This document shows, piece after piece, positions 161-16,164 of a stretch of DNA of 16,164 nt. Source of the DNA: a virus. The translations under genes and the position numbers were made by a program. Position 1 is the first letter of the stretch, and each line of letters opens with the position of its first letter. A model generated the notes under the pieces. That model made no database searches, was not told where the DNA came from, and saw nothing but the letters and a program-made list of their open reading frames with translations. The stretch lies in the UHGV virus genome UHGV-0142489. One strand, given 5' to 3'.

Positions 161-313
161 ATGTGTAAAGCGCACCTATTCTATGGTGGGCTGTGTGGGG
201 GCACCGAAAGGTGCGCCGGGTCCTTTGTAGCCGGTTACGCCAACCCTGCACAGTTCACCACCAACCGATTGGCGTCGGTAGTGGTGATTAACCTAACTAC
301 AAAGGTGATCACT

Positions 314-1000: not shown

Positions 1001-1042
1001 CGGCGGCGGCACAGGGATGTGCCTTTAAATAATTCTGTACGA

Positions 1043-1101: not shown

Positions 1102-1111
1102 AGGAGGAGAT

Positions 1112-1321
1112 ATGGGATTTTGGTTCGCTCGTACAAAAACGAGGGATAATGCACCCAGCCCTCAGGCAAAAAATGCAGAAGTTCCGGCGTCAGCGCAGGT
1201 TAACAAGCGTGGTGGTGTGTATATCTCATCACAGCAAATTTCTGAGCTTCCTGAGGTTAAGGAGATGCGTCGTCTCGCTGCTGCAATCGTTAAACAGGAT
1301 CTTGCCACTGTAAGGAAATAG
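1112..1321 (+). CDS. Small hypothetical protein, 69 aa, soluble
   Basis: ATG at 1112 preceded by an exceptionally strong Shine-Dalgarno GAGGAGGAG (1101-1109). Balanced, hydrophilic composition. TAG stop (1319-1321) overlaps the GTG start of the next gene by 1 nt. A hand-counted 100-nt sample (1141-1240) has 50 G+C, like the phage backbone. Confidence 0.65.
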   Translation: MGFWFARTKTRDNAPSPQAKNAEVPASAQVNKRGGVYISSQQISELPEVKEMRRLAAAIVKQDLATVRK

Positions 1322-2184: not shown

Positions 2185-2209
2185 ATTTTACGCAGTTTAG
2201 GTGGCTTAT

Positions 2210-2713: not shown

Positions 2714-2788
2714 CAGCGATACTGCCGCTGACGGCTCCCGCTGCGGTGGGCGTTCTGCGGATTCCCGCCCGGGCGGCGGTGGCATTCG

Positions 2789-2815
2789 TTAAAAACAAGG
2801 CCGCGAAAGCGGCCT
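2789..2815 (-). terminator. Intrinsic terminator closing the minus-strand virion operon
   Basis: Perfect 7-bp GC-rich stem AGGCCGC/GCGGCCT with GAAA tetraloop (plus-strand 2798-2815). On the minus strand the hairpin is followed directly by TGTTTTTAAC. It lies 9 nt downstream of the TGA stop of the 98-aa gene (2824-2826). Confidence 0.65.
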
Positions 2816-2823
2816 GTGACATG

Positions 2824-3120
2824 TCACGTTCCTTTTCTGAATGATAGCCGTTCGAAAAATGATGACATTCCACCGCAGACAATAGCAAAGATGATCCCAC
2901 CAAAGAAGAGAAGGCCAGCCTGCCACCACTCCCACCGCCATACATCCACAGCACCAACCATACCAACAATCGCTCCAACAAATGGAATATAGCTCACGAT
3001 GAAAGCAATGGGGGCTGCAATTATCCAGTGCAATCCCCACCATGATTCAAGCCCAGCCATAATTGCTGCCAACTGAAAAAGGCCAACGACGATATAAACA
3101 ATGAATCCTATCGCTTGCAT
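2824..3120 (-). CDS. Small integral membrane protein, 98 aa, three TM helices (holin-like topology or exclusion/immunity protein)
   Basis: ATG at 3120 with AGGTGA Shine-Dalgarno. Three hydrophobic helices separated by Trp-rich loops (ESWWGLHW, DVWRWEWWQ) and a short basic C-terminal tail (ERLSFRKGT). Last gene before the operon terminator. The two overlapping alternative-frame ORFs in the track were not chosen. Confidence 0.7.
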   Translation of the reverse strand: MQAIGFIVYIVVGLFQLAAIMAGLESWWGLHWIIAAPIAFIVSYIPFVGAIVGMVGAVDVWRWEWWQAGLLFFGGIIFAIVCGGMSSFFERLSFRKGT

Positions 3121-3132
3121 GTAGTCACCTAT

Positions 3133-3306
3133 TTACCCAGTAAAAATCAGAGGCCTCCCCTCAATAAGGCTTGCAACAAGAACTATTCCCTGCACAACAA
3201 AGATGAACCAGCAAATAGCTTGAGTCTGAGGGTTAAGAAAATATTTGTAGCGGTCAATAAATAACAACCCACCAGAAATTATCACACTCAAAATAATTAA
3301 AAACAC
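3133..3306 (-). CDS. Possible small two-TM membrane protein, 57 aa (not in the supplied ORF track)
   Basis: My own translation of the minus strand: GTG at 3306-3304 preceded by AAGGAAG, reading (M)FLIILSVIISGGLLFIDRYKYFLNPQTQAICWFIFVVQGIVLVASLIEGRPLIFTG and ending at TAA 3135-3133. No ATG is present in the frame, and AT-rich DNA gives hydrophobic codons by chance, so confidence is low. Confidence 0.3.
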   Translation of the reverse strand: MFLIILSVIISGGLLFIDRYKYFLNPQTQAICWFIFVVQGIVLVASLIEGRPLIFTG

Positions 3307-3315
3307 AACACTTCC

Positions 3316-5790
3316 TTATTGCGGAGTGACATCCTGAGGTCGCCACCAGTATGTCTGATTAAACTCTTTCTTCGAACGTTGCTCCATTTTACGCAAATAG
3401 CCTGGTGAAAAATACTCCTGCATCTGGTTAAAGATCATATGATCGAGAGCCGCCTTTAAGTACCAGAGATTCGCACCTGGCATCAAACCTTTCCCCAGCT
3501 TCACCAGATCACCACCAGTCTGCTCACTCTTCCCTTCCACAGCATTTAACGGTATGCCCTGAGCAATCTTCACTACGTCATCAACCAGACCAGCTACCGG
3601 GCCAAGCATCGACGCCAGCGCGCCGCTTCCGTACCTAGTGTGATCTGACAATAAAAAGTCACCGTAAAGGCCAAGGCCACCACCTTTCAGTAGAGCACCA
3701 AGCCAGAATTTTGCGGCACCTTCTCCTGTCATCTCTCGAGGATTACGACCAGACGCAAGGTCGTTAAGTTGCTGCGACAAAGCGCCAAGAATGGTCGTAC
3801 TGGCAATAAACGTCGCAATATATGCCGCACGCCCACCAGCAGACGGCATACCCATAGCGCGTGACCAGTGACGCATAACAACCGAGATAGGGAACGATTT
3901 AAACAGGAAAACACTTCTCGTTAATTCACCTTTCCATGTTCCACGCTGAATACCAGAACCGGTTATCAGTTGCTCACGTGCTCCCGGTGTAATAATAGCC
4001 ATATCAACTTCTTCAGTTACGGCACCGAGCAGTTTACGCATTGCCTCAAATTTCACTCGTTCAGGCTCACCAAGATGTTTAACTGCTGAATCAGGGATAC
4101 GCATAATGCTTTCCGGTGTCAGCATCGTATTATTACCGTTCCCCCAGTCCTCCTGTTGCGCCAGCTTCCATACGTTCCAGTCTGTGTCAGTAATCCCTTT
4201 GCTTTTCAGGATACGAAAATCAGAGTCATCGAGGCTACGAAGGTCTGGTGTCCGTGACACTACTTCTCCCAGGCTTCCCATCATGGTTACGCCATAGGCG
4301 CGCTTGTGCGCATCTGACCATGCTGTAAGCCCACTGGCACGCATTACGGCCGTTGCCGCCCAACGAGACACTGACGGCCCCATATTATCCATCGCCCAGC
4401 GGTTAACGCTGCCAAGTAGAGATTCCATCGCCAGACCAGCGCGGCGCGCCCGCGCAAGTTCTGTACGGTTCGTTGGGTCCATAGCTTCAAGCTGGTTGCG
4501 GAATAACTGGTTCATTGGAAGGTTGGTAACCTTCGCAGACAGATACATGGTTCCAAGATCAGAGAACGATGACAGCAACGCGGATCCGAGTCTGCTGGCA
4601 ACCAGCCAGTTGCGGATATTGTCAGACCATCGCGCGATGTGCGGATTCGCTACAGGCTGTGTCTTTCCAGAAATAAAGTTGTACAGATTCTCTGTGTTGT
4701 TCGCCAGCCGCTCGACTTTACCGGTTTTACTCGGGTTAGCTGTTGCCGTTTCTGCCTTAACCTGATCAAGAAGAGAGCGGAAAACATGATCGGGGTTTGG
4801 GCCATATGTTTCCACCAGCGCAATATCTTTACTGATACCTTCCAGGTGACCGACCATGATTTCCCATAGAGAGCGATCGCCATAAAGTTGCTGATATTGC
4901 AGATAGGAATCTGCATCTTTGAAATGTATCTGTCGTGATGCATTACCACGGTTAGCACGCACGCCGGAAATTCGCATTCCGGTATCAGTAAGCTTATTCA
5001 GCCCACCAGTAGCGATCGTGTTATAAGCCTCTCCAAGAAATGCAGACAACTCGGCATCGTTCATCAGTTGCCCATCGGCTCGGGTATAATATTTGCGATC
5101 CAGCTTACCTATAACATCGCTAACCCATTTATCTTTTGATACCGCCCCAACCTTTTCCATAGAATGATGTTGAGGGATCCCCCAGTTTTCGAGATAGCCA
5201 ATGTCCCCACCAGCATCATTAAACCGGCGGCGCAGTAGATCTGTCACTTCTCTCCACGCCTTAGCACCTTTTCTTGCTTTAGCATTGCCAGTATTTTGCC
5301 CTCGCATTTCATATACCAGGTCACGCACGCCCGCTTCATCTTCAAACAGACTAAAAAAGCGAGGATCAACTGCTTCGAATGCCTCCTGCAATCGACTCAA
5401 TGCATAATCACGGGTGGCTTTTGTTCTGGATTCAACAGAGAGGAAATTCGATTTACCGTCTGCATTAAAAGCAATAGTACGGTTAAGAGCGCCAAGTTTC
5501 CCATCAGCCCCTTGATAGCTATTGATAAATTTATCCAATCTCTGACGTGCGGCTATAGTGAGGGCCACACGACGTTTCTTTAATGCCGCTTCTCGCTGTA
5601 ATTCTTCAGATGCCAATTGTGCTGCTCGATATAGCCGCTCTGATTCGGAAAGTTGTCGCCACGAGATCGGGTCATCACGAGCAATGGAGCGCATATTTCG
5701 ATAAATGCGGTCTTCAATGTTCTGTATTTCTCGCGCCGTTAAAGTGCGCTGCGCCGCCTGCTGGACCGCTTGTATACATTCCTGTCTCAT
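3316..5790 (-). CDS. Large internal virion / ejection protein, 824 aa
   Basis: ATG at 5790, 5 nt after the stop of the upstream gene. Long, largely helical-looking protein with hydrophobic stretches near the C-terminus (AAYIATFIASTTILGAL, GAAKFWLGALLKGGGLGLYGDFLL). Its position after the tail tubular genes matches the internal core/ejection proteins of T7-type podoviruses. No tail-fibre-like repeats. Confidence 0.75.
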   Translation of the reverse strand: MRQECIQAVQQAAQRTLTAREIQNIEDRIYRNMRSIARDDPISWRQLSESERLYRAAQLASEELQREAALKKRRVALTIAARQRLDKFINSYQGADGKLGALNRTIAFNADGKSNFLSVESRTKATRDYALSRLQEAFEAVDPRFFSLFEDEAGVRDLVYEMRGQNTGNAKARKGAKAWREVTDLLRRRFNDAGGDIGYLENWGIPQHHSMEKVGAVSKDKWVSDVIGKLDRKYYTRADGQLMNDAELSAFLGEAYNTIATGGLNKLTDTGMRISGVRANRGNASRQIHFKDADSYLQYQQLYGDRSLWEIMVGHLEGISKDIALVETYGPNPDHVFRSLLDQVKAETATANPSKTGKVERLANNTENLYNFISGKTQPVANPHIARWSDNIRNWLVASRLGSALLSSFSDLGTMYLSAKVTNLPMNQLFRNQLEAMDPTNRTELARARRAGLAMESLLGSVNRWAMDNMGPSVSRWAATAVMRASGLTAWSDAHKRAYGVTMMGSLGEVVSRTPDLRSLDDSDFRILKSKGITDTDWNVWKLAQQEDWGNGNNTMLTPESIMRIPDSAVKHLGEPERVKFEAMRKLLGAVTEEVDMAIITPGAREQLITGSGIQRGTWKGELTRSVFLFKSFPISVVMRHWSRAMGMPSAGGRAAYIATFIASTTILGALSQQLNDLASGRNPREMTGEGAAKFWLGALLKGGGLGLYGDFLLSDHTRYGSGALASMLGPVAGLVDDVVKIAQGIPLNAVEGKSEQTGGDLVKLGKGLMPGANLWYLKAALDHMIFNQMQEYFSPGYLRKMEQRSKKEFNQTYWWRPQDVTPQ

Positions 5791-5795
5791 TTAAT

Positions 5796-7598
5796 TTAAC
5801 CTCTCAAGAAACACGCCACAGCGACATCAAACAGGCTGGAATCCTGTATTGCCTGCTCACTTTCCCTGTTCGCTTCATCCAGTACTTCACGCGCACTGCG
5901 CGATTGTGGATTACCATCATCATCCAGCACGGTGATTATCATGTCAGGTGATTCAAGCAGCGAGTCTTCAGCTATGCGCAGATCAATATCTCCTGCCTTA
6001 TCTGACATCATTTTTTGTTCTGCCTGTTGCAATATTTTATCAGGCTCAAAAGGAGCTACTTCGTCTGGCGTCCTGACCTCTGCTGTTTTATAGAATGAAA
6101 CAGCCTGAGCATTAAGTTCACTTTCTGCCTGCTGTCTCCGAGCCAGTTCTGCTCGAGCTTCAAAAAGCTGACCGCCAGGCTCGTGCGGTGCCAACGCGTT
6201 ACGGGAAAATTCCAGGCGTTCTTGTGCCTGCCGGATTCGTTGATCAATATCGCGAAGTCTGGCCTGTTTATCTGATCGAGCACGAGACAAAGCTTTACCG
6301 CTACCGGTTGGCTCTTCTGCAAGAATTTGTGCACGCTGTTCAGTGAGATTTTCAATAATTCGTTGGCTATTAGCGATTTCAGACTGGTAAACCTGTCTAT
6401 CTCCACGCGGCAAAAGCTGCGCGGCCTGTTCTTCAAGCAACCGATTTTCTATAGCACGCGCCGTTACTCCATCATCTACAGATGACAGAGCCTCATTAAC
6501 TGCCTGAGACAGCAGACTCTTGCGCCCAGGAATTTCACTGAAAGATGCAGACTCAACAATGCTGGCAACGTCTACAGGTCTCCCCTGGCTAACATCAGAC
6601 ATAGCTTTTCGCAGAGCCTGAATGTGAGAATTGCGCGAAAGCACGTTGATCGGCACGCCGGGCGCAATATCAATTTCAGCATGATGAGCGGCATTCGCCG
6701 CCAGTGCAGCATCGATATCAACTGGTGAAAAATTTGGTGCGTTTGTAGACTCGCCGCGAGAGTTAATAAATCTGCCGACACCACCAAACGCCACCCCAAG
6801 AACAGCATCAATAGCAATTGCCTGTCGATCCAACACATCATACTGGTTAGCCATTTCGCTATAGCCACCATCACGAAGTGTTTTTGCAGTAAGCCCACGC
6901 TGTGCCATACCGAACGCAATATTTGTACCTGCGGCATAGGCAATATCTGGCGTTGCACGTACTGCTGTTGCTGCGGCGCGTCGCACTGAACTCTCACCCG
7001 TCCGCGCAAGCTGAGCCGCCACACCTTCCGCCAGCGCACCACCAGCACGTAACCCGAGGCTCATAGGGATCAGTGTTCCGGCACCAGCAGTAATGCCCTG
7101 CACTAATCCCGCTTCCTGCGCCGTCCTGAAATCAACACCCTGTGCTGTCAGCCGTTCAAACTCAGAAAAACCCTGTAGCGAAGTTACCGCCGCCGCACCT
7201 CCGACAGGACCACCGAGCGTTGTACCGACAACAGCCTGCCCGCCCATATCGAACAACCCATAAAGAACCTGCCCGGCGGTTCCGGTTGTCGCGGCATCAG
7301 GCGTCAGCCGCTTAACCTGCTGCTCTGCTAGTTTTCTCTGCTCGGCAATGTATGAAACTGAAGTATCATTGAGCGAGGTGTTTTCGTTAATAAACTGAGC
7401 AATCGGGGATACGATTTTATCCATCCCTGCCCATAGCAACTGATCTGGCTTTGCCACCAGCCCGGAGTACAAACCAGACAATGCCGCTCCTACAGCATTG
7501 TCGAAAAAACCAACATCGCTGTTAAAGCCCGCTGGATTTGATGCTGCTTCGTCAAGTTGCTGATTCTGGTTTACTGGATTAAGGCCAAAGTAACTCAT
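5796..7598 (-). CDS. Internal virion protein, 600 aa, with Gly/Ala-rich N-terminal third
   Basis: ATG at 7598 overlaps the TGA of the upstream gene (ATGA, 4-nt overlap). Gly/Ala-rich low-complexity segments (GTTLGGPVGGAAAVTSL, GITAGAGTLIPMSLGLRAGGALAEGVAAQLARTG) followed by a charged, coiled-coil-like C-terminal half. Confidence 0.75.
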   Translation of the reverse strand: MSYFGLNPVNQNQQLDEAASNPAGFNSDVGFFDNAVGAALSGLYSGLVAKPDQLLWAGMDKIVSPIAQFINENTSLNDTSVSYIAEQRKLAEQQVKRLTPDAATTGTAGQVLYGLFDMGGQAVVGTTLGGPVGGAAAVTSLQGFSEFERLTAQGVDFRTAQEAGLVQGITAGAGTLIPMSLGLRAGGALAEGVAAQLARTGESSVRRAAATAVRATPDIAYAAGTNIAFGMAQRGLTAKTLRDGGYSEMANQYDVLDRQAIAIDAVLGVAFGGVGRFINSRGESTNAPNFSPVDIDAALAANAAHHAEIDIAPGVPINVLSRNSHIQALRKAMSDVSQGRPVDVASIVESASFSEIPGRKSLLSQAVNEALSSVDDGVTARAIENRLLEEQAAQLLPRGDRQVYQSEIANSQRIIENLTEQRAQILAEEPTGSGKALSRARSDKQARLRDIDQRIRQAQERLEFSRNALAPHEPGGQLFEARAELARRQQAESELNAQAVSFYKTAEVRTPDEVAPFEPDKILQQAEQKMMSDKAGDIDLRIAEDSLLESPDMIITVLDDDGNPQSRSAREVLDEANRESEQAIQDSSLFDVAVACFLRG

Positions 7599-10108
7599 TG
7601 CGGAATATCTCCGGAGAATCTCTGACGCTTCTGTGTCAGATCAAGAACAACAGGAGAACCATCATCTTTCAGCAGATAACCAGTACCAAGTTTCACCAGG
7701 TACTGACTATCGCCGTAACTTTGCAAACCATACTGACCAGGCGGTGTTTTTATCCCGGTGCCGACCACTTGTTCATTCCAAGCCTGATTAACCTGCTTAT
7801 CGAATTGCTCTGCAGACATTCCCCACGGCAAAAGGACATTCCCCATTCCGTTATAGTCATGCACGCCACCTGTAGCTACGTTAACAGCCTGCTTCCAGAT
7901 ATCAGTGTCAATTTCGCCTGATATCACGCCTTTTTTCGCCATCACACCAGCGTAATAGTCCTTTGCGATCTCGTATGCCATTGATGCCCCCTGAGCATCA
8001 CCAGCAAATGCATCCTTCACCATGTCAGAAAACTCAAGGCGAAGATCAGCATCTTTAGGCATCGGAATACCTTTCGCATCATCAGTACCTTTACGAGCCG
8101 CCGCGCCAGTAAGAATTGTCTGCGCAGCGGTTTCAGGAGACACGGAAACATCCGGATTAAACCAGTTTTTTTCTGCCAAAATACCACCAGGCTTGTCCAT
8201 CAGTATCCCGGCAACGGCAGCAGATGGAGCGTTGGCACTGATCTGCTGTAGTGCTGACATATACACCTGCCCACCACCAGTGCTCTGCCTGATGGTATCG
8301 AGATATGCTGCCTGTTGGGAAACTGGAGCATCACGAAAGAAAACACCGATCTGATTGGCCTCGTCTTTGGAAAAGAACGTCAGTGGAGTGCCATATGACT
8401 TAGCAAGGTCACTGACCTGAGCAGCACGCAAGGCAACGCTCTGTCCAAAGTTATCCTTATTGCTCATGTCGATAGGCTTTGCCTGTCCGGCGGCAAGAGA
8501 GAACTGTACAGGATCAGCCTGTCGCTGCTTTATCACCTGACTTGCAGCCGACACAACGTTGTCATAAAGAGCGGCTCGTGCCGCATAACCCTCCCCTGTC
8601 TCACCAGTATCCGGGCGTAATTGCTCAACATATGCTGTAATGCTGCTTGTCGGCATGTTGCGGAAAGAGCCTATATACTGTCCGGCGATTTGCGTATTTC
8701 TGAACTCGGTATATCGCAGGTTTCCTTCTCTGACTCCATAAGCTGCAATAAAATCAGCCTCACCAGGTGGGTTAGGAAATTCAACGCCCCGCATATACGC
8801 AGCTGTCGCATCGCGAACCTTGCTGTCAATCATCGTTTTATATTCAGCCTGCTGCTGCCGACGCAGTTGATCCGCCTGTCGCATAAAACTTGCCTGCGCC
8901 TCAGGAGATGCCGCATCGAATGCTGCATTACCGGTATAGCGTTTGGTGTTGGTTGGAATTGTTGATAAACCAAGTGCTGCACTGACACCAGCAGTTAACT
9001 GCTGATCACTGTATGGCTGGCTACCGTTCTCATGATGGATAATGGCTGCACAAAGCGCCTTCAGGGTATCAGGATTTGATGCATCGAGAGGCTCATCAGC
9101 AGAAACGCCAAGTTGTTCGCACACTGCTTTGATATACGACATAGTGTCATTTTTATCAGTAGGCGGTGCCCAGCGATTAATTATCTCGCTGACGGTATCA
9201 ATACCCTGCCGCTGATACGACATCAGGTTCCGCCCTAATGCACGAATCCCGTGTTCAGGTGTTTCGAATTTAGCAAATCTACCATCATCACCGGTCTGGC
9301 CTACCCACGGATTAGTTTTGCTGTATTCGAGATTTCCGGGGTTATTGTTGCGTATGCCACGGACACGCTCGGAAGAGCCACTATCTGTTACAGCACGGCG
9401 AGCTCCAGCAGCAGTATCACTTAACTCGCCATTACTTTGGATGAATGCGGTCGCATTGTTTGCCGACCACTGGGACAATGCTGCATCAGCAACCTTCTCT
9501 TTAAACTCGATTTTCTTGGTCTGTATTTGCTCGTCGCTCCAGCCATGTGCAGCACCGTACTCCTCAATTTGCTGGAAAGTTTGCTTATTAGCCAATACGT
9601 ATGCGGCATTGTCGCCATACAATGCTGCGGCATTTTTACCATTGTTCAGCAGCGTCGCCTGAAACTGACCTTCTTCGTAGGCATTAATTTGCCCTATCTC
9701 GTGCCGCCCGGCCTGCGTAGTGAACTGAATGCGCTGCTGCTGCGCCTGCTGCATGAAAGCATTACGAGCCTGTTCATCCGGCAGCGACATAGCCAGTTGT
9801 TCGACCTGAGCATCAAACTGCTGCGTATACTCATGGCCTTTTCCAATAGCATTTTTCCCTTTCAGGTTAAGCAAACCTGTTTCAGGGTTATTCAGCAGAT
9901 CACTGCTTATCTGACTGAGGTTAAGAGATGCCTCCTGAGCCAGAGCGATATTGGCACGCTGTTTTGCCTGCCCCAAAACATCAATTGCCTCTGTCCCTGC
10001 CCGAACAAAAGCATCACCAATACCTGGCTGAGAAAACGTCTGCAAGCCTGCTGACTGAACTCCACGGCTCTCAACCTGGCGTCCGGATACTGTTGGTACG
10101 ACTGGCAT
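7595..10108 (-). CDS. Large internal virion protein, 837 aa
   Basis: ORF-track frame 7595..10183 trimmed to the ATG at 10108, which has GGAGG 6 nt upstream and overlaps the TAA of the upstream gene by 1 nt (TAATG). The longer form would overlap the upstream gene by 76 nt. Contains a conserved-looking block GIRNNNPGNLEYSKTNPWVGQTGDDGRFAKFETPEHGIRALGRNL (residues ~250-295). Confidence 0.75.
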   Translation of the reverse strand: MPVVPTVSGRQVESRGVQSAGLQTFSQPGIGDAFVRAGTEAIDVLGQAKQRANIALAQEASLNLSQISSDLLNNPETGLLNLKGKNAIGKGHEYTQQFDAQVEQLAMSLPDEQARNAFMQQAQQQRIQFTTQAGRHEIGQINAYEEGQFQATLLNNGKNAAALYGDNAAYVLANKQTFQQIEEYGAAHGWSDEQIQTKKIEFKEKVADAALSQWSANNATAFIQSNGELSDTAAGARRAVTDSGSSERVRGIRNNNPGNLEYSKTNPWVGQTGDDGRFAKFETPEHGIRALGRNLMSYQRQGIDTVSEIINRWAPPTDKNDTMSYIKAVCEQLGVSADEPLDASNPDTLKALCAAIIHHENGSQPYSDQQLTAGVSAALGLSTIPTNTKRYTGNAAFDAASPEAQASFMRQADQLRRQQQAEYKTMIDSKVRDATAAYMRGVEFPNPPGEADFIAAYGVREGNLRYTEFRNTQIAGQYIGSFRNMPTSSITAYVEQLRPDTGETGEGYAARAALYDNVVSAASQVIKQRQADPVQFSLAAGQAKPIDMSNKDNFGQSVALRAAQVSDLAKSYGTPLTFFSKDEANQIGVFFRDAPVSQQAAYLDTIRQSTGGGQVYMSALQQISANAPSAAVAGILMDKPGGILAEKNWFNPDVSVSPETAAQTILTGAAARKGTDDAKGIPMPKDADLRLEFSDMVKDAFAGDAQGASMAYEIAKDYYAGVMAKKGVISGEIDTDIWKQAVNVATGGVHDYNGMGNVLLPWGMSAEQFDKQVNQAWNEQVVGTGIKTPPGQYGLQSYGDSQYLVKLGTGYLLKDDGSPVVLDLTQKRQRFSGDIPQ

Positions 10109-10653
10109 TATAATCCTCCGGGTAATCTGGTTCCTGCTGCTGCCCCGATTGGCGCAGGGGTGCTTTGAGTAAACGGACTCCACGTCCCACCAAACATCTG
10201 GTACGCACCGTATGCCTTCAGAGGCGCAGTGAGCAATGTTGTTGCTGCTCCCACATTCCCCTGTTTACGGGCTGAACTGGCTTCTGCTTTATAGTTGGCA
10301 GCCTGAACCTGATAACCGTAAGCCTCGCGTTGCGCGTTATTCACCGTCGTCAGCGAATCAAGAGCGCCAAACTGAGCAGTGTCACCAAATATATCCAGCG
10401 CGTTACCGGTAGATAAATCAGCGCCGGTAGCCCCCATTGTCGCCGCCTGTGTACCAAGCCGCTGTCGGGTCTCTCTGCGCCGTTGCTCAGCTTCAGCGTT
10501 ACCCCTGTTTATTGCATCATTTGCCTGAGCTGTGGCTATATCTGCGTTCGCTTCTGCAACCTTCGAGGCATACTTTCCCTGTTGGTACTGGGTGTATGCC
10601 TGAATGCCACTCATGGCGAGCATTGCGCCACCAGCAATAACCGGATCGCACAT
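10108..10653 (-). CDS. Internal virion protein, 181 aa
   Basis: ATG at 10653 with GGAGAG upstream, overlapping the TAA of the upstream gene (TAATG). Ala/Gln-rich with a hydrophobic N-terminus (VIAGGAMLAMSGI). Size and position resemble T7 gp14-type core proteins. Confidence 0.7.
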   Translation of the reverse strand: MCDPVIAGGAMLAMSGIQAYTQYQQGKYASKVAEANADIATAQANDAINRGNAEAEQRRRETRQRLGTQAATMGATGADLSTGNALDIFGDTAQFGALDSLTTVNNAQREAYGYQVQAANYKAEASSARKQGNVGAATTLLTAPLKAYGAYQMFGGTWSPFTQSTPAPIGAAAGTRLPGGL

Positions 10654-11117
10654 TATTTTCTCTCCATGTGAAATCTGTGGAAATTAAGACCAAGAGCACC
10701 ATAAGGCGCGGCTTCTTCAAGCCTGAATCCAAGCCAGTGCAGCCATGCTTTGGCAACATGGTTTCGCTCGTCGACATAGTTTTCCAGGCGCGGATAAACT
10801 GCCAGCATCTGCTGCAATACAGGGCGGCAGTGGCGAAGAAATGTCTTCTGATATTTTTCGATACGGCTGGTTCCGACCAGCCAGGGCGTACCATTGCCAC
10901 CGATCATTGACGCCGGAGATACGCCAAACATGGTTACCAGTTCTCCGTTCGCAAATCCTGACCAGGCCATAGTCGCAGTACGCAGACCAACACGCAGCGC
11001 ATCTTCGGTAGTCATCAGCGATACCGCATACAGTTCGTCAATATCAGCCTGACGAACATCCGGCAAAATCATCTGAAGATGCTCTTCGGTAGCGGGAATA
11101 ATTTGAACGTCGATCAT
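10653..11117 (-). CDS. Virion-associated protein, 154 aa (position equivalent to T7 gp13)
   Basis: ATG at 11117 overlapping the TGA of the tail tubular B gene (TGATG). Immediately downstream of the tubular pair, as gene 13 is in T7-type phages. Function not recognisable from the sequence. Confidence 0.65.
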   Translation of the reverse strand: MIDVQIIPATEEHLQMILPDVRQADIDELYAVSLMTTEDALRVGLRTATMAWSGFANGELVTMFGVSPASMIGGNGTPWLVGTSRIEKYQKTFLRHCRPVLQQMLAVYPRLENYVDERNHVAKAWLHWLGFRLEEAAPYGALGLNFHRFHMERK

Positions 11118-13594
11118 CAGAATCCCCCAACAGTAAGGCGAGGAATAACGGCAAGAACAGACAGCGGCAACGGGTCAAGCTGACGGATTTTTACACGTCC
11201 GTTTTTGCCCCAGTTACTGTCCAGTTTCACTTCTACTTTTCCGGTAGCATCATCAACAGGATCATCGTAGAACTCGAATTCACGCTGTGGATATTCGTAC
11301 CATTTACCGCCAGGCGTAGTCGCCCAGATGCCGCGACTGGCGTTGACCACTAGTGTCACGGTATTGATCAGCTGTTTCTTATCGAGCAGCGTCTCCTGCC
11401 CGTTAATATTGATGTCCAGGGTTTCAAACTGGGCGTTAATCGGCAGTCCGATGTGGACCACGGCGCCGGGTTTCTCCAGCGTAACGGCGCCGCCGGTGAC
11501 GACTTTCTGCGGCTCTACGCTGGCGTCAGACAGTACATTCACGGTCTGTCCTTCGAGGTGATCGAGTCCGGCGAATGTCTGGCGGGCCATGTACCAGTTA
11601 GTGGTGGCGGTATTGCGCAGGGCAGGAGGAATATTCCGGTTGGCTGTGACGGTTACCGAGTTGCCGCTTTCAACCGAAATAATGTCGCAGCGCAGCTGCA
11701 TGGCAACGGCGCTACCATCTTCAGGATCGGTTCCTGTGTAGGGGAACTGGATCTGTGCGCCGACGTCTCCTGCGGTAAAATAGCTGGCCCCGCTCATCGT
11801 CAGGGTATACGGCACCTGATAACTCCAGTCCCCGCTTCCACCGGTTATAGTCGCCGCCCGGCTGCCGGTGTTGCGTCCGTCATAGGTCAGTCCGCTGTCG
11901 ACAAAGAAAGCGTCAAGGTCATCGGTGAACTGGCGGCTTGCCAGCCTCTCGATATAGCGTTTCGTCTGGCCGTTGATAGTGCGGTTAACCACGAAATAGA
12001 TCGCATCCTCGCTGCCTTCACTGATACCGCAAGTGCTCTCATATTTCCCGGCGCTGGATTGCGGAGACCAGGCGAAAACCTGCTGATCGCGCAGATAGGT
12101 CAGCACCAGCAATTTTCCATCATCACGCACGCAGAACGCGCTGGAGAACGGGACAATACAAAACGCCCAGTCGACAATGCTGCGCTTCTGGAAAAGGTGA
12201 TTAGCAAGGATTGTCAGGTCGTTGCCCTGGAATCCATCCACATCAAACGAGTAGGCCAGATCCCGCACGACGCTGCCCTTCTCCTGGATAAAGAGCGCGA
12301 TATTCGAAACTGCGATAGGTGGGACATCGCTGCAGCCGTTTGAGCCCTGAGAACTCAGGGAGAATGCAGAAGGCGTAAGCACTTTATTCTGGTCACCGGT
12401 CACAACAAACTCACCGCCGGAGGTCAGAACAACCAGCGATCCAACATCGATAAGGTGGCGAATTTCGTTAACCTGCCGGCCAGCGTAGGTATAAACGATC
12501 CTGTCATCGTCCTGCGTCGGGTTACTCTTGCCGAAGTCTTTATAGTCACCGGTACGGCTGGCCCAGATGGTTTGCGGATAGGCAGGGGATGCAGCGAAGT
12601 ACAGCCTCTGCTGGTAGTAGACGACCGTCGCCGGATAGCCATTGACGCTGTTCCACGCATAGCGTGCCCACTTGTAGCTGGCCTTGTCAGCCCCGACAAC
12701 GTTCTCAGGGATACGAGAAACCACATCAGCGGTTGCAGTCAGGCCGTCACCGGCGACGGCAGTGATCCGCACAATGCCAAAACCACTATGCAGGTATTCC
12801 CACTGCACGCCTGTATCATCATCGCCGGTTCCGCCCCAGCCATCCCACGCCATACCTTCGGTGTGTGATGGGCGTAACGTCCCGGTTTTTCCTTCGGTAT
12901 TGGCGCGATAGTAGTTGCTGTCGGCGCGCCGGATATCCTCGATCGATGTGCTCTTGCTGGTTTCCCATACTGGTACAGAGTCAACGGCTGGCTGCTCGAG
13001 GTAGAACAGCTTTCCGACCTGCTCGGCGCCGAATATTGCAGAGCTCGAGGTCAGAGTGATTGTGCCAGTAGTGGCGCTGGCCCAGACAGTTTTGGACTCG
13101 TCGACATTGATATCTTCAAACGGGCCGTTAGTTGTCTGCACATCGACGATCTGCCAGTTGTCATGCGCATACCGGCGCAATTCTTTAGGCGGATAGGACG
13201 GGTGCACGATCGTCATCACATCGGCGCTTTGGGTGAATTTCAGGCCGAAAACATCATTTTCTGTATAAGGTGTCGCCAGCTCGTAGATTACATTGCCGGT
13301 GGTCAGCACCAGGCCGCCGTCTTTGATGACGCGCATGTAATTGTGGCCAAACTCCAGCGCATAGGTCTGCACCGTCGAAAACTGGAAAGGGATAAGGCGG
13401 CATTTGCGATCCGGGTATTTCGCCGCGGCGATGAACTGCGTGCCCGGGCGGTTCTCTACCCCGCCATACTGCCGCACGATAAAGTTATCGCACTTGCGCA
13501 GCGCCACCTGGTACTTGGCCATATCGATGCGGCCATAGAGCGATGGAGCAATTTCTCCACCTGAGAAGCTCGGTTGTATCCAGCTAACAGCCAT
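11117..13594 (-). CDS. Tail tubular protein B (T7 gp12-like), ~825 aa
   Basis: The N-terminus (SWIQPSFSGGEIAPSLYGRID ... GGVENRPG) follows the pattern I remember for T7 gp12, and the size is close to gp12 (~800 aa). It follows the tubular protein A gene directly. Start set at ATG 13594 (1-nt TGATG overlap with the upstream stop); the track's GTG at 13600 is the alternative. Confidence 0.8.
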   Translation of the reverse strand: MAVSWIQPSFSGGEIAPSLYGRIDMAKYQVALRKCDNFIVRQYGGVENRPGTQFIAAAKYPDRKCRLIPFQFSTVQTYALEFGHNYMRVIKDGGLVLTTGNVIYELATPYTENDVFGLKFTQSADVMTIVHPSYPPKELRRYAHDNWQIVDVQTTNGPFEDINVDESKTVWASATTGTITLTSSSAIFGAEQVGKLFYLEQPAVDSVPVWETSKSTSIEDIRRADSNYYRANTEGKTGTLRPSHTEGMAWDGWGGTGDDDTGVQWEYLHSGFGIVRITAVAGDGLTATADVVSRIPENVVGADKASYKWARYAWNSVNGYPATVVYYQQRLYFAASPAYPQTIWASRTGDYKDFGKSNPTQDDDRIVYTYAGRQVNEIRHLIDVGSLVVLTSGGEFVVTGDQNKVLTPSAFSLSSQGSNGCSDVPPIAVSNIALFIQEKGSVVRDLAYSFDVDGFQGNDLTILANHLFQKRSIVDWAFCIVPFSSAFCVRDDGKLLVLTYLRDQQVFAWSPQSSAGKYESTCGISEGSEDAIYFVVNRTINGQTKRYIERLASRQFTDDLDAFFVDSGLTYDGRNTGSRAATITGGSGDWSYQVPYTLTMSGASYFTAGDVGAQIQFPYTGTDPEDGSAVAMQLRCDIISVESGNSVTVTANRNIPPALRNTATTNWYMARQTFAGLDHLEGQTVNVLSDASVEPQKVVTGGAVTLEKPGAVVHIGLPINAQFETLDININGQETLLDKKQLINTVTLVVNASRGIWATTPGGKWYEYPQREFEFYDDPVDDATGKVEVKLDSNWGKNGRVKIRQLDPLPLSVLAVIPRLTVGGF

Positions 13595-14199
13595 CAGCAC
13601 ATCCTCGCTACGGTAAACGGATCGTCAGGCATTTGCGGTTCCTGCGATTCGTTCATGCTGTGAGAGCCAGCGCTGAGGATGATCCGGCTATACATGCTCA
13701 GGGCATTATTGCCAAGGTCGGCATTACCCGTGAGAACCATGTTAATAGCCGCGGCCAGGCGCCAGGATAGAGCCTCCTGGAAGATGGAATCGAACATGTT
13801 CACGTCGGTGATGCGGGCAACATACCGAAGCCAGGCCTGCGGCAGATCGGTGTAAATCAGGCGCCCCGTGCCGGCGCTGTCCGCGCCGACCACGTACTGC
13901 ACGCGCATAGCAGCCGTCGGATACCGTACGCCAGGCAGCGGGATCTCAATAATACGGAGGCAGTCAGTGGGATAGGTATACGCATAATCCCAGTCCTGCG
14001 GCGGGTTATTGGTGTCAGCCAGCGCGATATTCTTGGTCGCAAAATTCCAGTCAAAATCGGCCAGGACAGCATCACGAATCGACTCGTAATACAGGGAGCA
14101 TTGCCCGGCTTCTTTGCTGGCTTCCTCCAGGCTGTTGATGCTCCGGTTATTACCGATGTTGCTCAGCGCCCGGTTGCAGATCTCAATGACAGAGGCCAT
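13594..14199 (-). CDS. Tail tubular protein A (T7 gp11-like), 201 aa
   Basis: Size ~200 aa; N-terminal ICNRALSNIG...SINSLEE, a central DFDWNF block and C-terminal EALSWRLAAAIN parallel the T7 gp11 pattern as I remember it. Lies immediately upstream of tubular protein B. ATG at 14199 overlaps the upstream TAA (TAATG). Confidence 0.8.
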   Translation of the reverse strand: MASVIEICNRALSNIGNNRSINSLEEASKEAGQCSLYYESIRDAVLADFDWNFATKNIALADTNNPPQDWDYAYTYPTDCLRIIEIPLPGVRYPTAAMRVQYVVGADSAGTGRLIYTDLPQAWLRYVARITDVNMFDSIFQEALSWRLAAAINMVLTGNADLGNNALSMYSRIILSAGSHSMNESQEPQMPDDPFTVARMC

Positions 14200-14522
14200 T
14201 ACTCGCCCCCTTCACCGTAAAGCGTCTGCGCCGCCGTCTTCGGTGCCTCACCTGAAACAGGTGCCAGCGCCATATCGGTGATTTGCAGATCCGCGCTGCG
14301 GAAAGTGCCATCGTCGCCTTCACGCGCCGAAATACCCTTAATCACTGCTTTTGCGGTGATCATCACCTCAGTGCCTACATTCTGTGGCTGCGCTTTCAGC
14401 TTGTTCAGGGTGTCATTGTTCAGCGTGATGCACAGCCCCCACGGATATTCGTCGCGGGTTTTGGTCTGGCCGCTTTCATCCTGGTAGCTGTCGGTGCCGG
14501 TTTTGAGATTGACCATTTCCAT
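14199..14522 (-). CDS. Hypothetical small virion protein, 107 aa
   Basis: ATG at 14522 with GGAG 6 nt upstream. First gene after the inter-module hairpin and translationally coupled to the tubular A gene. Acidic and hydrophilic. Confidence 0.65.
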   Translation of the reverse strand: MEMVNLKTGTDSYQDESGQTKTRDEYPWGLCITLNNDTLNKLKAQPQNVGTEVMITAKAVIKGISAREGDDGTFRSADLQITDMALAPVSGEAPKTAAQTLYGEGGE

Positions 14523-14530
14523 AGAACGCT

Positions 14531-14557
14531 CCTACAAGAAAGGGGCCGAAGCCCCCT
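14531..14557 (-). terminator. Candidate partial intrinsic terminator / RNA-stabilising hairpin between head and tail gene blocks
   Basis: GC stem GGGGC/GCCCC with CGAA loop (plus-strand 14542-14555). On the minus strand it is followed by TTTCTTGT, and it sits between the stop of the 113-aa gene (14573) and the ribosome-binding site of the 107-aa gene. Comparable in position to terminator T-phi after the capsid gene in T7. Confidence 0.45.
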
Positions 14558-14572
14558 GGTTTATTCTGAGGC

Positions 14573-14914
14573 TCAGACGCCTAAATCTTTTCGCTTTTCG
14601 TCGATCTTCTCGCGCAGCGTTTCGGCTTTGGTGTTGTGATGCGGCTTCTCGTTAAAGAGCAACTCGTACTCTTCGCGGAGCTTATCCAGCTCGTCATCGC
14701 CACCACCGCCTTCGTTCAGCGGCTCAGGTTTAACAACAGCAGGAGCCACAACCTTTTGCGTTGCCTTCGCCTTTGCTTCCTTCGCCGCTTCGTTCAGCGG
14801 CTCCAGCGCCGAGCCAGGCACCCCGTCATACTCAATCTCTGAACCCTCCGGCCAGAGGTTGTTATGGATATGGGACAGACGCAGCACGCGGTATTTTGCT
14901 TTTTCAGCTGACAT
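14573..14914 (-). CDS. Hypothetical charged protein, 113 aa (K/E-rich with a GGGG linker)
   Basis: ATG at 14914 with a strong AAGGAG 5 nt upstream. Highly charged low-complexity C-terminal half (EAAKEAKAKATQK ... NEGGGGDDELDKLREEYE ... REKIDEKRKDLGV). Located in the head gene block. Confidence 0.7.
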   Translation of the reverse strand: MSAEKAKYRVLRLSHIHNNLWPEGSEIEYDGVPGSALEPLNEAAKEAKAKATQKVVAPAVVKPEPLNEGGGGDDELDKLREEYELLFNEKPHHNTKAETLREKIDEKRKDLGV

Positions 14915-14924
14915 CGATATCTCC

Positions 14925-15368
14925 TTAGCCGGTCACTTTAGAGCGGGTCGGGTACAGGGTATTCGCATCAACGTCCAGGTTGATACCGGAGGTGAACGCG
15001 CCAGCAGTCAGCGGGCCGGTGGCTACGGAGTAGTTCACACGCAGATAGCGCTGAACGCCCGCCGGTACCTTCGCCGACACAACGCGCTTACCAGCTTTAA
15101 GCGCTGCCAGAGCCAGGGGGCCGCTGTCATAAATGGTCGTCCAGGTGCTGTTGTCAGGACTGGTCTGCAACTGCACGTTGACGGTAGCGGCGCCAGCAGC
15201 GGTAGCCGTGGTGTTAACGAGAGCCCAGAACTCCAGCGGATAACCAACGCCGATATCACGGCGGGTGCCGTCGACAGGCGCCAGGTCAATCACATCGGTA
15301 GAAGCAGCAGTAGCCGTAACCGCCTGCGCTTCGGAGAACATCAACAGTTTGTCGAGGATCATCTTCAT
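14925..15368 (-). CDS. Small beta-rich virion protein, 147 aa (possible capsid decoration / cement protein)
   Basis: Directly downstream of the capsid gene. Thr/Ala/Val/Gly-rich composition typical of beta-sandwich head accessory proteins. GGAG lies only 2 nt from the ATG at 15368, so the ATG at 15362 may be the real start. Confidence 0.65.
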   Translation of the reverse strand: MKMILDKLLMFSEAQAVTATAASTDVIDLAPVDGTRRDIGVGYPLEFWALVNTTATAAGAATVNVQLQTSPDNSTWTTIYDSGPLALAALKAGKRVVSAKVPAGVQRYLRVNYSVATGPLTAGAFTSGINLDVDANTLYPTRSKVTG

Positions 15369-15415
15369 TTCTCCATTTAGCAGCCCGTTACCGGGCCGCT
15401 GGTTATAGTCAGGGG

Positions 15416-16164
15416 TTAAACCACGCGAGCTTCAGTTTCCAGAAGCGCATCGGTTTCGCGAATCGGAACGCCGCGGAAACTGGTCCACCAATCGCCTTCA
15501 GTCTCTTTGACGCTAATCGCCAGAGAGGATTTCTCCAGAGATTGCAGATCAAGAGCCTGGGCAACAGTGCGGTTCATGTAGAACACCGGGCGCCCCATGC
15601 CACGGTTAGGGATGCGATGCAGCGCTTTCACCATGAGCTTGGCGATGTTTGCTGCCGCAGCAGGATCGGACAGGTCGCTGATATCGATGTTCGCGATGCG
15701 GACAACGTAGCGCCAGTCGCGCAGGCACAGGCCGTTATCCCACTTATAGTGGGTGCGGTAGCCTTCATACTGGCCGCCGCTGGCATCTTTCAGAGTCTGC
15801 TGGCCTTTATCTTCCATCTGCAGACCTGCTTTCTGGCCTTTCGGGAAGATACCGTGAACGGTGTTTTCGCCCCATACAATGAGCCAGATTGAAGTGTTAT
15901 CGGTGCCAGTACCGCCGGCGTCGATAATGTTTTGCGCGTTGGTAGCCGTCAGGTCGGAGTAGCGAGAAGACAGGCCCATGAACTGCTGCGGGTTAACGCT
16001 GGAGTCGCCATAAAAAAGCGTTTGAGCCATCTGCTGATTCATCGCCTCGAGGAAAGCGCGATCTTCTGACAGCCGAAATTCAGCGGTATTTCCGTTCAGA
16101 TCTGCCAGAGATTTATCAATCTCCGCATAGGTTTCCAGCATGCCAATGCCATCGGTAACCTGCA
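15416..16164 (-). CDS. Probable major capsid protein, C-terminal ~249 aa (5' end lies beyond the window)
   Basis: The open frame runs to the window edge without a credible start; the M at 16141 in the track is internal. It is the first gene of the head-tail block and has a composition consistent with an HK97-fold coat protein. The call rests on position and general character only. Confidence 0.6.
   Translation of the reverse strand, partial: QVTDGIGMLETYAEIDKSLADLNGNTAEFRLSEDRAFLEAMNQQMAQTLFYGDSSVNPQQFMGLSSRYSDLTATNAQNIIDAGGTGTDNTSIWLIVWGENTVHGIFPKGQKAGLQMEDKGQQTLKDASGGQYEGYRTHYKWDNGLCLRDWRYVVRIANIDISDLSDPAAAANIAKLMVKALHRIPNRGMGRPVFYMNRTVAQALDLQSLEKSSLAISVKETEGDWWTSFRGVPIRETDALLETEARVV

What the first reader, a model, noticed from the sequence alone, without database searches (positions are those of the whole stretch)
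10106..14201. Unbroken chain of 1-nt stop/start overlaps through the tail and core genes
Five consecutive junctions are TAATG or TGATG overlaps (14199, 13594, 11117, 10653, 10108), followed by an ATGA 4-nt overlap at 7595-7598 and a 5-nt gap at 5791-5795. This indicates obligate translational coupling and fixed stoichiometry across the tail and ejectosome proteins. It is also independent support for the ATG starts chosen over the longer frames in the ORF track.
Basis: seen in the sequence. Interest (0 to 1): 0.3.

Follow-up and report, generated by a model that had tools for sequence, protein, structure and literature searches.

The report
Stop/start overlaps in phage tail operon
The end-to-end gene overlaps are real and inherited from the epsilon15/phiV10 family of temperate phages, and they fit the well-known pattern of translationally coupled genes, but nothing in the sequence shows that the coupling is obligatory or fixes protein ratios.

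Summary
Observation confirmed. On the minus strand, five consecutive genes start with an ATG that shares one base with the upstream stop codon: TAATG at 14199, 10653 and 10108, TGATG at 13594 and 11117. An ATGA overlap (7595-7598) and a 5-nt gap (5791-5795) follow. The window is the late structural operon of an epsilon15/phiV10-like (Uetakevirus) prophage. It runs: gp10-like, adaptor, nozzle, two small internal virion proteins, a transglycosylase-type protein, gp16-like, gp17-like.

The same junctions are annotated in phiV10, Tyrion and TL-2011b. Four of the five are near-universal in enterobacterial relatives; the gp14/gp15 overlap is a minority state. In more distant relatives the junctions stay tight but change type, and T7 has no overlaps there.

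In phiV10, five of the six 1-nt overlaps sit in this run (permutation P about 1.5e-4), so the clustering is not chance. Every start has its own Shine-Dalgarno motif. The ATG starts are well supported by nine relatives.

"Obligate coupling" and "fixed stoichiometry" are not supported as stated. Predicted start-site accessibility differs between junctions, no conserved occluding RNA structure was found, and some relatives lack individual overlaps. This is a known, ordinary architecture; interest is low.

The parts
14541..14557 (-). Terminator-like GC hairpin plus T-run between the gp9-like and gp10-like genes; upstream boundary of the overlapped gene run.
   Evidence: AGGGGGCTTCGGCCCCT TTCTTG. 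epsilon15 annotates a rho-independent terminator at the same place.
14199..14522 (-). gp10-like gene (107 aa), first gene of the run. Pfam PF21628; role in the virion uncertain.
   Evidence: The 'capsid staple' assignment is contested in PMC9207676. AF2 model pLDDT 80 with no structural neighbour.
14197..14201 (-). TAATG: gp10-like stop overlaps the gp11-like ATG by 1 nt. SD AGGGGGC at 14205-14211.
   Evidence: SD dG -10.8. The junction is -1 in 17 of 18 distinct enterobacterial junction sequences.
13594..14199 (-). gp11-like tail adaptor (T7 tubular tail A type, 201 aa).
   Evidence: PHROG 394 tail protein. PDB 8CK1 connector protein, E 4e-25. epsilon15 gp11 annotation.
13592..13596 (-). TGATG: adaptor stop overlaps the nozzle ATG by 1 nt. 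SD GAGGA at 13602-13606.
   Evidence: dG -6.5. -1 in 17 of 18. The stop toggles TGA/TAA among relatives.
11117..13594 (-). gp12-like tail nozzle (T7 tubular tail B type, 825 aa from ATG 13594).
   Evidence: PHROG 376. PDB 8CK1 tail nozzle, E 6e-211. N-terminus MA[VIF]SWIQPSF conserved in 9 relatives.
11115..11119 (-). TGATG: nozzle stop overlaps the gp13-like ATG by 1 nt. SD GGGGGA at 11123-11128, formed by the C-terminal Gly-Gly codons.
   Evidence: dG -8.4. -1 in 18 of 21. The first Gly codon is GGR in 15 of 16, against 33% background.
10653..11117 (-). gp13-like internal virion protein (IVP-A type, 154 aa).
   Evidence: PHROG 308. Hardies et al. PMC4819975.
10651..10655 (-). TAATG: gp13-like stop overlaps the gp14-like ATG by 1 nt. 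SD GGAGAG at 10660-10665.
   Evidence: dG -6.4. -1 in 13 of 17.
10108..10653 (-). gp14-like internal virion protein (T7 gp14 family, 181 aa, conserved N-terminal MC).
   Evidence: Pfam PF24072. PHROG 418.
10106..10110 (-). TAATG: gp14-like stop overlaps the gp15-like ATG by 1 nt. SD GGAGGA at 10114-10119. This is the minority state among relatives.
   Evidence: dG -9.5. -1 in only 3 of 18 distinct junctions; the rest have +9 to +12 gaps. The start region is predicted open.
7595..10108 (-). gp15-like large internal/ejection protein with a lytic-transglycosylase-type region (837 aa from ATG 10108).
   Evidence: PHROG 992/1044/7182. epsilon15 gp15 annotation. N-terminus MP[VT]VPT conserved.
7595..7598 (-). 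ATGA: 4-nt overlap of the gp15-like stop and the gp16-like start. SD GGAGA at 7608-7612.
   Evidence: The junction is -4 or -1 in relatives.
5796..7598 (-). gp16-like protein (600 aa).
   Evidence: PHROG 1145. phiV10 p19 / epsilon15 gp16.
5791..5795 (-). 5-nt spacer (ATTAA) between the gp16-like stop and the gp17-like ATG. SD GAGAGG at 5800-5805.
   Evidence: The gp17 start region is predicted very open in all relatives.
3316..5790 (-). gp17-like virion structural protein (IVP-D type, 824 aa), last large gene of the run.
   Evidence: PHROG 684. Hardies et al. assign epsilon15 gp17 to the IVP-D family.
2798..2815 (-). Terminator-like hairpin at the end of the operon, after two small membrane-protein ORFs.
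   Evidence: AGGCCGCTTTCGCGGCCT TGTTTTT. phiV10 annotates a terminator at the equivalent place.

Best explanation
This is the late tail/ejection-protein operon of an epsilon15/phiV10-like temperate podovirus. It is read as one long minus-strand mRNA that begins just after a leaky terminator (about 14541) and ends at a terminator at about 2800. The genes are packed end to end. Each downstream ATG shares a base with the upstream TAA/TGA or lies within a few bases of it, and each is preceded by a Shine-Dalgarno motif written into the last codons of the upstream gene.

The most likely consequence is partial, junction-specific translational coupling. A ribosome finishing one gene reinitiates at the adjacent ATG, or it keeps that ATG unfolded for a new 30S subunit. 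Synthesis of neighbouring virion parts therefore rises and falls together. The ratio at each junction would be set by SD strength and local structure, not fixed at 1:1.

The exact -1 form is an inherited state of this clade that is hard to mutate away, because only TAA<->TGA changes keep both signals. It is not a requirement of the mechanism. Shown here: the anatomy, its conservation, the SD motifs and the start sites. Inferred: that coupling actually occurs, and how strongly.
For: Junctions verified. Identity of the module: 90% DNA identity to phiV10 and relatives, PHROG/Pfam/PDB matches, synteny with epsilon15. No promoter excess inside the run, and terminator-like hairpins at both ends. Clustering of -1 overlaps is non-random. 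Four junctions are -1 in 13-18 of 17-21 distinct enterobacterial junction sequences, with the stop toggling TAA/TGA while the overlap is kept. All starts have SD duplex energy of -6.4 kcal/mol or stronger, against 11.5% of background positions at -6 or stronger. Per-junction SD strength is conserved across the clade. SD-forming GGR Gly codons occur in 15 of 16 at the nozzle C-terminus, against 33% background. Spacing stays between -20 and +28 even in distant relatives. Experimental precedent: 4 of 5 E. coli overlapping pairs are coupled, SD removal lowers reinitiation, and coupling is lost beyond about 20-38 nt. Such pairs are enriched for subunits of complexes.
Against: There is no experimental datum for this phage group. 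Each gene has its own SD, so independent initiation is possible. Predicted accessibility of the gp14, gp15 and gp17 starts is as high as at free-standing starts. No covariation supports an occluding hairpin at gp10/gp11. The homologous T7 module works with 4-80 nt gaps and internal promoters. One tested E. coli overlap (bioBF) was not coupled. Conservation of the overlaps can be explained in part by mutational stickiness and shared ancestry.
Confidence: 0.6

Rival explanations
1. The overlaps are only a by-product of genome compaction and shared ancestry. Every gene is initiated independently at its own SD, and the shared base has no regulatory role.
For: Every start has a good SD. The gp15 and gp17 start regions are predicted open. 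Junction type turns over freely among relatives (-1, -4, -8, -14, +1 to +12) without loss of the module. T7 has no overlaps. bioBF is a precedent for an uncoupled overlap. Only TAA<->TGA changes are tolerated in a -1 overlap, so it persists without positive selection.
Against: -1 overlaps are concentrated in this module, while the rest of the genome uses -4 or gaps. Spacing never drifts beyond a few tens of bases across very distant relatives. In tested E. coli pairs this arrangement usually does couple. The gp11 start is consistently predicted to be more occluded than background.
Confidence: 0.3
2. One reading: translation of each gene depends strictly on the one before it, which fixes the stoichiometry of tail and ejection proteins along the whole chain.
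For: Unbroken run of overlaps. [quoted passage not shown] The products assemble into one machine.
Against: Adaptor and nozzle homologues are present 12:6, and T7 core proteins are present in unequal numbers. Relatives have a 9-12 nt gap at gp14/gp15 in 15 of 18 junctions. Morganella and Klebsiella relatives have gp11 as the leading gene after a terminator. gp15 and gp17 have open start regions with strong SDs. No conserved occluding structure was found.
Confidence: 0.08
3. The overlaps are an artefact of start-codon choice. The true starts are the upstream GTGs (13600, 10183) or downstream ATGs.
For: the ORF listing gives longer frames for two genes.
Against: For three of the five genes the overlapping ATG is the first start codon in the frame. 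GTG 13600 is absent from seven of nine relatives and lies about 1 nt from the SD. GTG 10183 is absent outside the phiV10 subgroup, and the frame is closed there. N-termini are conserved from the ATG onward. PHROG profiles align from residue 1-3.
Confidence: 0.02

Closest known systems
Late structural operon of Uetakevirus phages (Escherichia phage phiV10 p13-p20; Salmonella phage epsilon15 gp10-gp17)
   Same: Same genes in the same order. phiV10, Tyrion and TL-2011b have the same five -1 overlaps, and phiV10 and Tyrion also the same ATGA overlap at gp15/gp16. Window 3316 to about 11320 is 97-99% identical to phiV10.
   Different: epsilon15, SPN1S, PAT1, BUCT554 and ST11-OXA245phi3.2 have a 10-12 nt gap at gp14/gp15. 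Several have -1 instead of -4 at gp15/gp16 and -1 at gp16/gp17. The window is a mosaic: its head/adaptor/nozzle part is 94-99% identical to a Klebsiella prophage-type phage.
Translational coupling by termination-reinitiation at -1/-4 gene overlaps (Huber et al. 2019, 2023; review by Brown & Wade 2025)
   Same: Co-directional genes, TGATG/TAATG or ATGA junctions, an SD inside the 3' end of the upstream gene, and products that form a complex.
   Different: Dependence of downstream on upstream translation has not been measured for any of these phage junctions. -1 rather than the generally commoner -4 dominates this module.
T7 genes 11-16 (tail tubular proteins A and B, internal virion proteins A-D)
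   Same: Homologous adaptor, nozzle and gp14-family protein in the same order, downstream of a terminator that follows the capsid genes.
   Different: T7 has gaps of 23, 80, 4, 6 and 26 nt and internal phage promoters, with no overlaps. So the overlaps are not needed for assembling this kind of machine.
Lambda G/GT-type programmed frameshift in tail assembly genes (own knowledge, not tested here)
   Same: A translational device that sets the ratio of phage tail assembly proteins.
   Different: That device is a slippery-site frameshift giving two products from one start. Here there are separate genes with separate starts, and no frameshift signal was looked for systematically.

Membership tests
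Translationally coupled overlapping gene pairs (termination-reinitiation type) | Co-directional genes on one transcript. | tested here: met
   All genes are on the minus strand. Promoter-like sites are not above shuffles (13 against 12.6). Terminator-like hairpins lie only at the two ends of the run among intergenic positions. This is a sequence-level test only.
Translationally coupled overlapping gene pairs (termination-reinitiation type) | Stop/start distance of -8 to about +10 nt. | tested here: met
   Spacings are -1, -1, -1, -1, -1, -4, +5.
Translationally coupled overlapping gene pairs (termination-reinitiation type) | SD motif in the 3' end of the upstream gene. | tested here: met
   SD duplex energies range from -6.4 to -10.8 kcal/mol at all seven junctions, against 11.5% of background positions at -6 or stronger. 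The motifs are conserved across the clade.
Translationally coupled overlapping gene pairs (termination-reinitiation type) | Downstream translation falls when upstream translation is stopped prematurely. | not testable with these tools
   This needs reporter fusions or ribosome profiling. No published data for this phage group were found.
Translationally coupled overlapping gene pairs (termination-reinitiation type) | De novo initiation at the downstream start is suppressed, for example by local RNA structure. | tested here: inconclusive
   Opening energies for gp11 are 9.6-15.8 kcal/mol, against a background of about 9.5. gp13 is slightly above background, gp12 is at background, and gp14, gp15 and gp17 are below it. 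The consensus fold of the gp10/gp11 junction has no compensatory pairs.
Uetakevirus (epsilon15-like) structural module | Nucleotide similarity and synteny with phiV10/epsilon15 from capsid to gp17. | tested here: met
   90% identity over 95-98% of 13 kb to phiV10-group phages. The gene order is identical.
T7-type tail/internal-virion-protein module (homology group of Hardies et al. 2016) | Adaptor, nozzle and gp14-family homologues in that order. | tested here: met
   PDB 8CK1 and 9EFK connector and nozzle matches. Pfam PF24072 T7_gp14. PMC4819975.
T7-type tail/internal-virion-protein module (homology group of Hardies et al. 2016) | Gene spacing as in T7 (short gaps, internal promoters). | tested here: not met
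   T7 gaps are 23, 80, 4, 6 and 26 nt, with promoters phi13 and phi17. The window has overlaps instead.

The most novel reading that the evidence does not exclude
The run acts as a hard-wired translational step-down. Reinitiation efficiency at each UAAUG/UGAUG junction would be tuned by the clade-conserved pattern of strong and weak SD motifs (median dG -10.8, -6.6, -9.3, -6.4, -9.3, -6.3, -6.1). That tuning would deliver the unequal copy numbers of adaptor (12), nozzle (6) and ejection proteins from a single mRNA, and the -1 form would be preferred here because it leaves the conserved second residues (A, A, I, C, P) free.
Probability: 0.15. Interest if true: 0.4.

Novelty: already known. Interest (0 to 1): 0.15.

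Why it matters
The practical value is in annotation. The comparison fixes the start codons of the adaptor, nozzle and ejection-protein genes of a prophage type found in about a fifth of complete E. coli genomes (1050 of 5426). It also shows that the longer frames offered by ORF finders are wrong. If coupling were demonstrated, the module would be a convenient natural system for asking how a phage sets unequal subunit ratios from one mRNA. As it stands, this is a standard example of a general, already described gene arrangement.

Tried and rejected
1. I planned to argue against fixed stoichiometry from gp10 as a roughly 420-copy capsid staple joined by TAATG to the 12-copy adaptor. I dropped this because PMC9207676 reports that the 111-aa gp10 was probably mis-assigned to the staple density and that the 130-aa gp8-type protein fits instead.

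2. To settle the role of the gp10-like protein, I collected homologues (a narrow enterobacterial family, best match 98% to K. pneumoniae). I predicted the structure (pLDDT 80.2) and searched the PDB by fold. No match was better than E 0.25, so its role and copy number remain unknown.

3. I looked for a conserved hairpin hiding the gp11 start. The single-sequence fold pairs the SD with codons 2-3 (z -1.35). The consensus fold over 15 relatives has -3.9 kcal/mol and no compensatory changes, so this is not supported.

4. NCBIfam gave no hit for any of ten proteins. PADLOC gave none for the left-hand ORFs.

5. Jiang et al. 2006 (virion copy numbers of epsilon15) is not held in the library. Literature searches found no study of translational coupling in this phage group.

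6. The plain motif count (TRATG) is uninformative because the pentamer is common.

7. Large spacings in some distant loci reflect inserted genes or partial matches. They were excluded by requiring an N-terminal anchor.


Full report
**What is there.** All long ORFs between 3316 and 16141 lie on the minus strand.
- GAGTAATGGCC at 14199
- GCTGATGGCT at 13594
- TCTGATGATC at 11117
- AAATAATGTGC at 10653
- TATAATGCCA at 10108
- GCAATGAGT at 7595-7598
- TAA-ATTAA-ATG, leaving a 5-nt gap at 5791-5795

The pentamers sit at 14197-14201, 13592-13596, 11115-11119, 10651-10655 and 10106-10110.

**What the genes are.** The region is 90% identical over 95-98% of 13 kb to Escherichia phage phiV10 and its close relatives, and about 75-80% identical to Tyrion, SPN1S and epsilon15. 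It is therefore the late structural operon of a Uetakevirus (epsilon15-like temperate podovirus). The genes, in order:

| Window coordinates | Gene | Basis |
|---|---|---|
| 15416-16141 | major capsid protein, C-terminal part | |
| 14925-15368 | Bbp16-type cement protein | |
| 14573-14914 | gp9-like | |
| 14199-14522 | gp10-like | Pfam PF21628 |
| 13594-14199 | adaptor, T7 tubular tail A type | PDB 8CK1 connector, E 4e-25 |
| 11117-13594 | nozzle, tubular tail B type | 8CK1 nozzle, E 6e-211 |
| 10653-11117 | IVP-A-type protein | |
| 10108-10653 | T7 gp14-family protein | Pfam PF24072 |
| 7595-10108 | large protein with a transglycosylase-type region | |
| 5796-7598 | gp16-like | |
| 3316-5790 | gp17-like, IVP-D type | |

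A terminator-like hairpin lies just upstream of the gp10-like start (14541-14557). epsilon15 annotates a rho-independent terminator at that spot. Another hairpin closes the operon at 2798-2815. Promoter-like sites inside the run are no more frequent than in shuffles.

**Is it more than chance?** The pentamer TRATG is common (110 copies in the window), so its mere occurrence means nothing. Its placement does. phiV10 has the same junction architecture, and its whole-genome annotation gives 45 co-directional neighbour pairs. Twelve are -4 overlaps and six are -1 overlaps, and five of those six form this run. Permuting spacings among pairs gives a run of 5 or more with P = 1.5e-4. In epsilon15, six of the seven -1 overlaps lie in the same module (P = 0.009). 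This is notable because -4 is the commoner overlap in prokaryotes generally (PMC12548453), and it is also the commoner one in the rest of these genomes.

**Conservation.** I classified junctions by homology-anchored starts in 34 genome loci, 80 IMG/VR loci and 13 phage records. Counts below are for distinct junction sequences of the enterobacterial clade.

| Junction | State in the enterobacterial clade |
|---|---|
| gp10/gp11 | -1 in 17 of 18 |
| gp11/gp12 | -1 in 17 of 18 |
| gp12/gp13 | -1 in 18 of 21 |
| gp13/gp14 | -1 in 13 of 17 |
| gp14/gp15 | -1 in only 3 of 18; the rest have +9 to +12 gaps, as in epsilon15 and SPN1S |
| gp15/gp16 | split between -4 and -1 |
| gp16/gp17 | split between -1 and short gaps |

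- The stop codon toggles between TAA and TGA among relatives while the overlap is retained; one case is TAGTG.
- In more distant relatives the junctions remain tight but change type. BUCT711 has -1, +1, -8, +12, -4, +3. Carin1 has -1, +28, +3, +12, +8. Tr60_Ab31 has -4, -20, -16, -1, -4, -1. AF has -4, -4, +2, +9, -4. Pseudomonas prophages have -4, -14, +2/+3, -1, -4.
- T7, whose adaptor, nozzle and gp14 are homologous, has gaps of 23, 80, 4, 6 and 26 nt and internal promoters.
- So tight packing is a deep trait of the module. The -1 form is a clade-level inherited state, and the fifth overlap in this window belongs to the phiV10 subgroup only.

**Start sites.**
- For three of the five genes the overlapping ATG is the first start codon in the open frame.
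- For the nozzle gene, the GTG two codons upstream (13600) exists only in the window and in ST11-OXA245phi3.2. It lies about 1 nt from the SD (GAGGA), so its spacing is unsuitable for initiation.
- For gp15, the GTG 25 codons upstream (10183) exists only in the phiV10 subgroup. In Tyrion, epsilon15, SPN1S, PAT1 and BUCT554 the frame has only 0-11 open codons upstream and no start codon.
- N-termini are conserved from the ATG onward in all nine relatives: MASV[IV]EICNRAL, MA[VIF]SWIQPSF, MI..Q, MC.P and MP[VT]VPT. PHROG profiles align from residue 1-3.
Using the overlap itself as evidence for the start is partly circular.

**Shine-Dalgarno motifs.** All seven junction starts have an SD-like motif 3-9 nt upstream.
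- Duplex energies with the 16S 3' end are -10.8, -6.5, -8.4, -6.4, -9.5, -6.6 and -6.5 kcal/mol. Only 11.5% of positions in the operon reach -6.
- The per-junction medians across the clade are almost the same: -10.8, -6.6, -9.3, -6.4, -9.3, -6.3, -6.1.
- The motifs are written into the C-terminal codons of the upstream genes. At the nozzle C-terminus (..VGGF*) the first Gly codon is GGA or GGG in 15 of 16 distinct sequences, against 33% in the bulk of these genes. This count does not correct for shared ancestry.
- At the gp10-like C-terminus the amino acids vary (GEGGE, GNGGE, DGEDD) but GGAGG or GGGGG is kept.
- SD motifs are consistent with both reinitiation and independent initiation. In E. 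coli, removing them lowered reinitiation by 60-100% in four of five pairs (PMC6728339).

**Is coupling obligate?** Several findings speak against the strong wording.
- Opening energy: I computed the energy needed to open positions -15..+5 around each start, within a 120-nt context. In the window, gp11 needs 15.2 kcal/mol (95th percentile of operon positions), gp13 12.0 (77th) and gp12 9.7 (51st). gp14 needs 7.0 (22nd), gp15 4.9 (5th) and gp17 4.5 (4th). The last two are as open as the free-standing gp10-like start (5.9).
- Same ranking in relatives: across nine relatives gp11 needs 9.6-15.8, gp15 3.7-6.6 (Tyrion is the exception), and gp17 1.3-4.8.
- No conserved structure: a consensus fold of the gp10/gp11 junction over 15 relatives gave only -3.9 kcal/mol and no compensatory pairs. 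The occlusion is therefore a thermodynamic prediction without comparative support.
- Natural variants: 15 of 18 relatives separate gp14 and gp15 by 9-12 nt and still carry a strong SD.
- Natural variants: Morganella and Klebsiella/BUCT711-type relatives lack the gp10-like gene. There gp11 is the first gene after the terminator, with its own SD.
- Precedent: one of five tested E. coli overlaps (bioBF) was not coupled at all.

**Is stoichiometry fixed?**
- Homologues of the adaptor and nozzle occur as 2 chains to 1 chain per asymmetric unit in 8CK1, and as 12 to 6 chains in 9EFK. The epsilon15 tail hub is hexameric on a dodecameric portal (PMC12391199).
- T7 core proteins are present in unequal numbers (PMC8954989).
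- Coupling, if it occurs, cannot be 1:1. It could still hold ratios constant.
- The general idea that short overlaps are favoured among subunits of complexes is published. In E. coli, 30.4% of gene pairs at distances of -8 to +10 nt encode subunits of heteromeric complexes, against 6.8% of pairs more than 20 nt apart (PMC10666635).
- I could not use the gp10-like protein as a high-copy counter-example. Its assignment as the capsid staple is contested (PMC9207676), and my model of it (pLDDT 80) has no structural neighbour in the PDB.

**Best explanation (confidence 0.6).** The operon is probably translated with partial, junction-specific coupling.
- Ribosomes that terminate at UAA/UGA either reinitiate at the overlapping AUG or keep it accessible.
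- The embedded SD and local structure set the efficiency at each junction.
- The -1 form persists partly because only TAA<->TGA substitutions preserve both signals.

The main rival (confidence 0.3) is that the overlaps are compaction plus inheritance, with fully independent initiation. The strict chain model is unlikely (0.08). Mis-called starts are essentially excluded (0.02).

**Comparison with what is known.** These junctions have been in the public annotation of epsilon15 and phiV10 for years. The mechanism class is well described. I found no paper that examines coupling in this phage group. The only mildly new points are the statistical concentration of -1 overlaps in the tail/ejection module and the conserved per-junction SD strengths. 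The finding is ordinary and already known in kind, and interest is low.

Noticed in passing
window 11320-11365 (inside the 3' end of the nozzle gene 11117-13594): The window is a recombinant. 3316 to about 11320 is 97-99% identical to E. coli phage phiV10. About 11365 to 16164 is 94-99% identical to Klebsiella phage ST11-OXA245phi3.2 and only about 75% to phiV10. The crossover lies about 70-80 codons before the nozzle stop, so the nozzle C-terminus travels with the ejection proteins. The gp10-like protein is 98% identical to a K. pneumoniae protein.
   Followed up: partly
window 14199-14522 (-): The gp10-like protein belongs to Pfam PF21628 ('major coat protein-like') and is named 'capsid staple protein' by NCBI. 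A 2022 paper (PMC9207676) argues that the epsilon15 111-aa gp10 was wrongly fitted to the staple density and that the 130-aa gp8/Bbp16-type protein fits. My AF2 model (pLDDT 80, long beta-hairpin) has no PDB neighbour. The family name may rest on a mis-assignment.
   Followed up: partly
window 1000-2750 (+ strand): A low-GC block (0.34-0.39, against about 0.5-0.57 elsewhere) holds two ORFs, 1321-2184 (287 aa, PHROG 3630) and 2201-2713 (170 aa, PHROG 36918). They are convergent with the late operon and have no Pfam or PADLOC match. Related E. coli prophages carry other cargo around this part of the region (AAA ATPase, YafO toxin, IS66), which suggests a variable moron slot.
   Followed up: partly
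window 161-1000 (+): A Bro-N domain protein (PF02498, E 8e-20), as in phiV10 p23.
   Followed up: no
window 2824-3310 (-): Two small hydrophobic ORFs follow the gp17-like gene: a GTG-started one at about 3305 (like phiV10 p21, two predicted TM helices) and 2824-3120 (98 aa, PHROG 3075). The operon terminator at 2798-2815 comes next.
   Followed up: no
L023 about 3885-3930 and L028 about 3866-3912 (Morganella psychrotolerans, Klebsiella pneumoniae ATCC 13883); also L008 (BUCT711): These relatives lack the gp10-like gene. The adaptor gene follows a terminator hairpin directly (GTG start in Morganella), which shows that the first overlap of the chain is dispensable in nature.
   Followed up: partly
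window 15362-15368 (-): The cement-protein ORF begins ATGAAGATG. phiV10 annotates the shorter form (145 aa), and the SD spacing fits the second ATG better (1 nt against 7 nt).
   Followed up: no
window 10108-10653 (-) and relatives: The T7 gp14-family protein has an invariant N-terminal Met-Cys in all nine relatives. From my own memory, untested here, T7 gp14 starts the same way. The significance is unknown.
   Followed up: no
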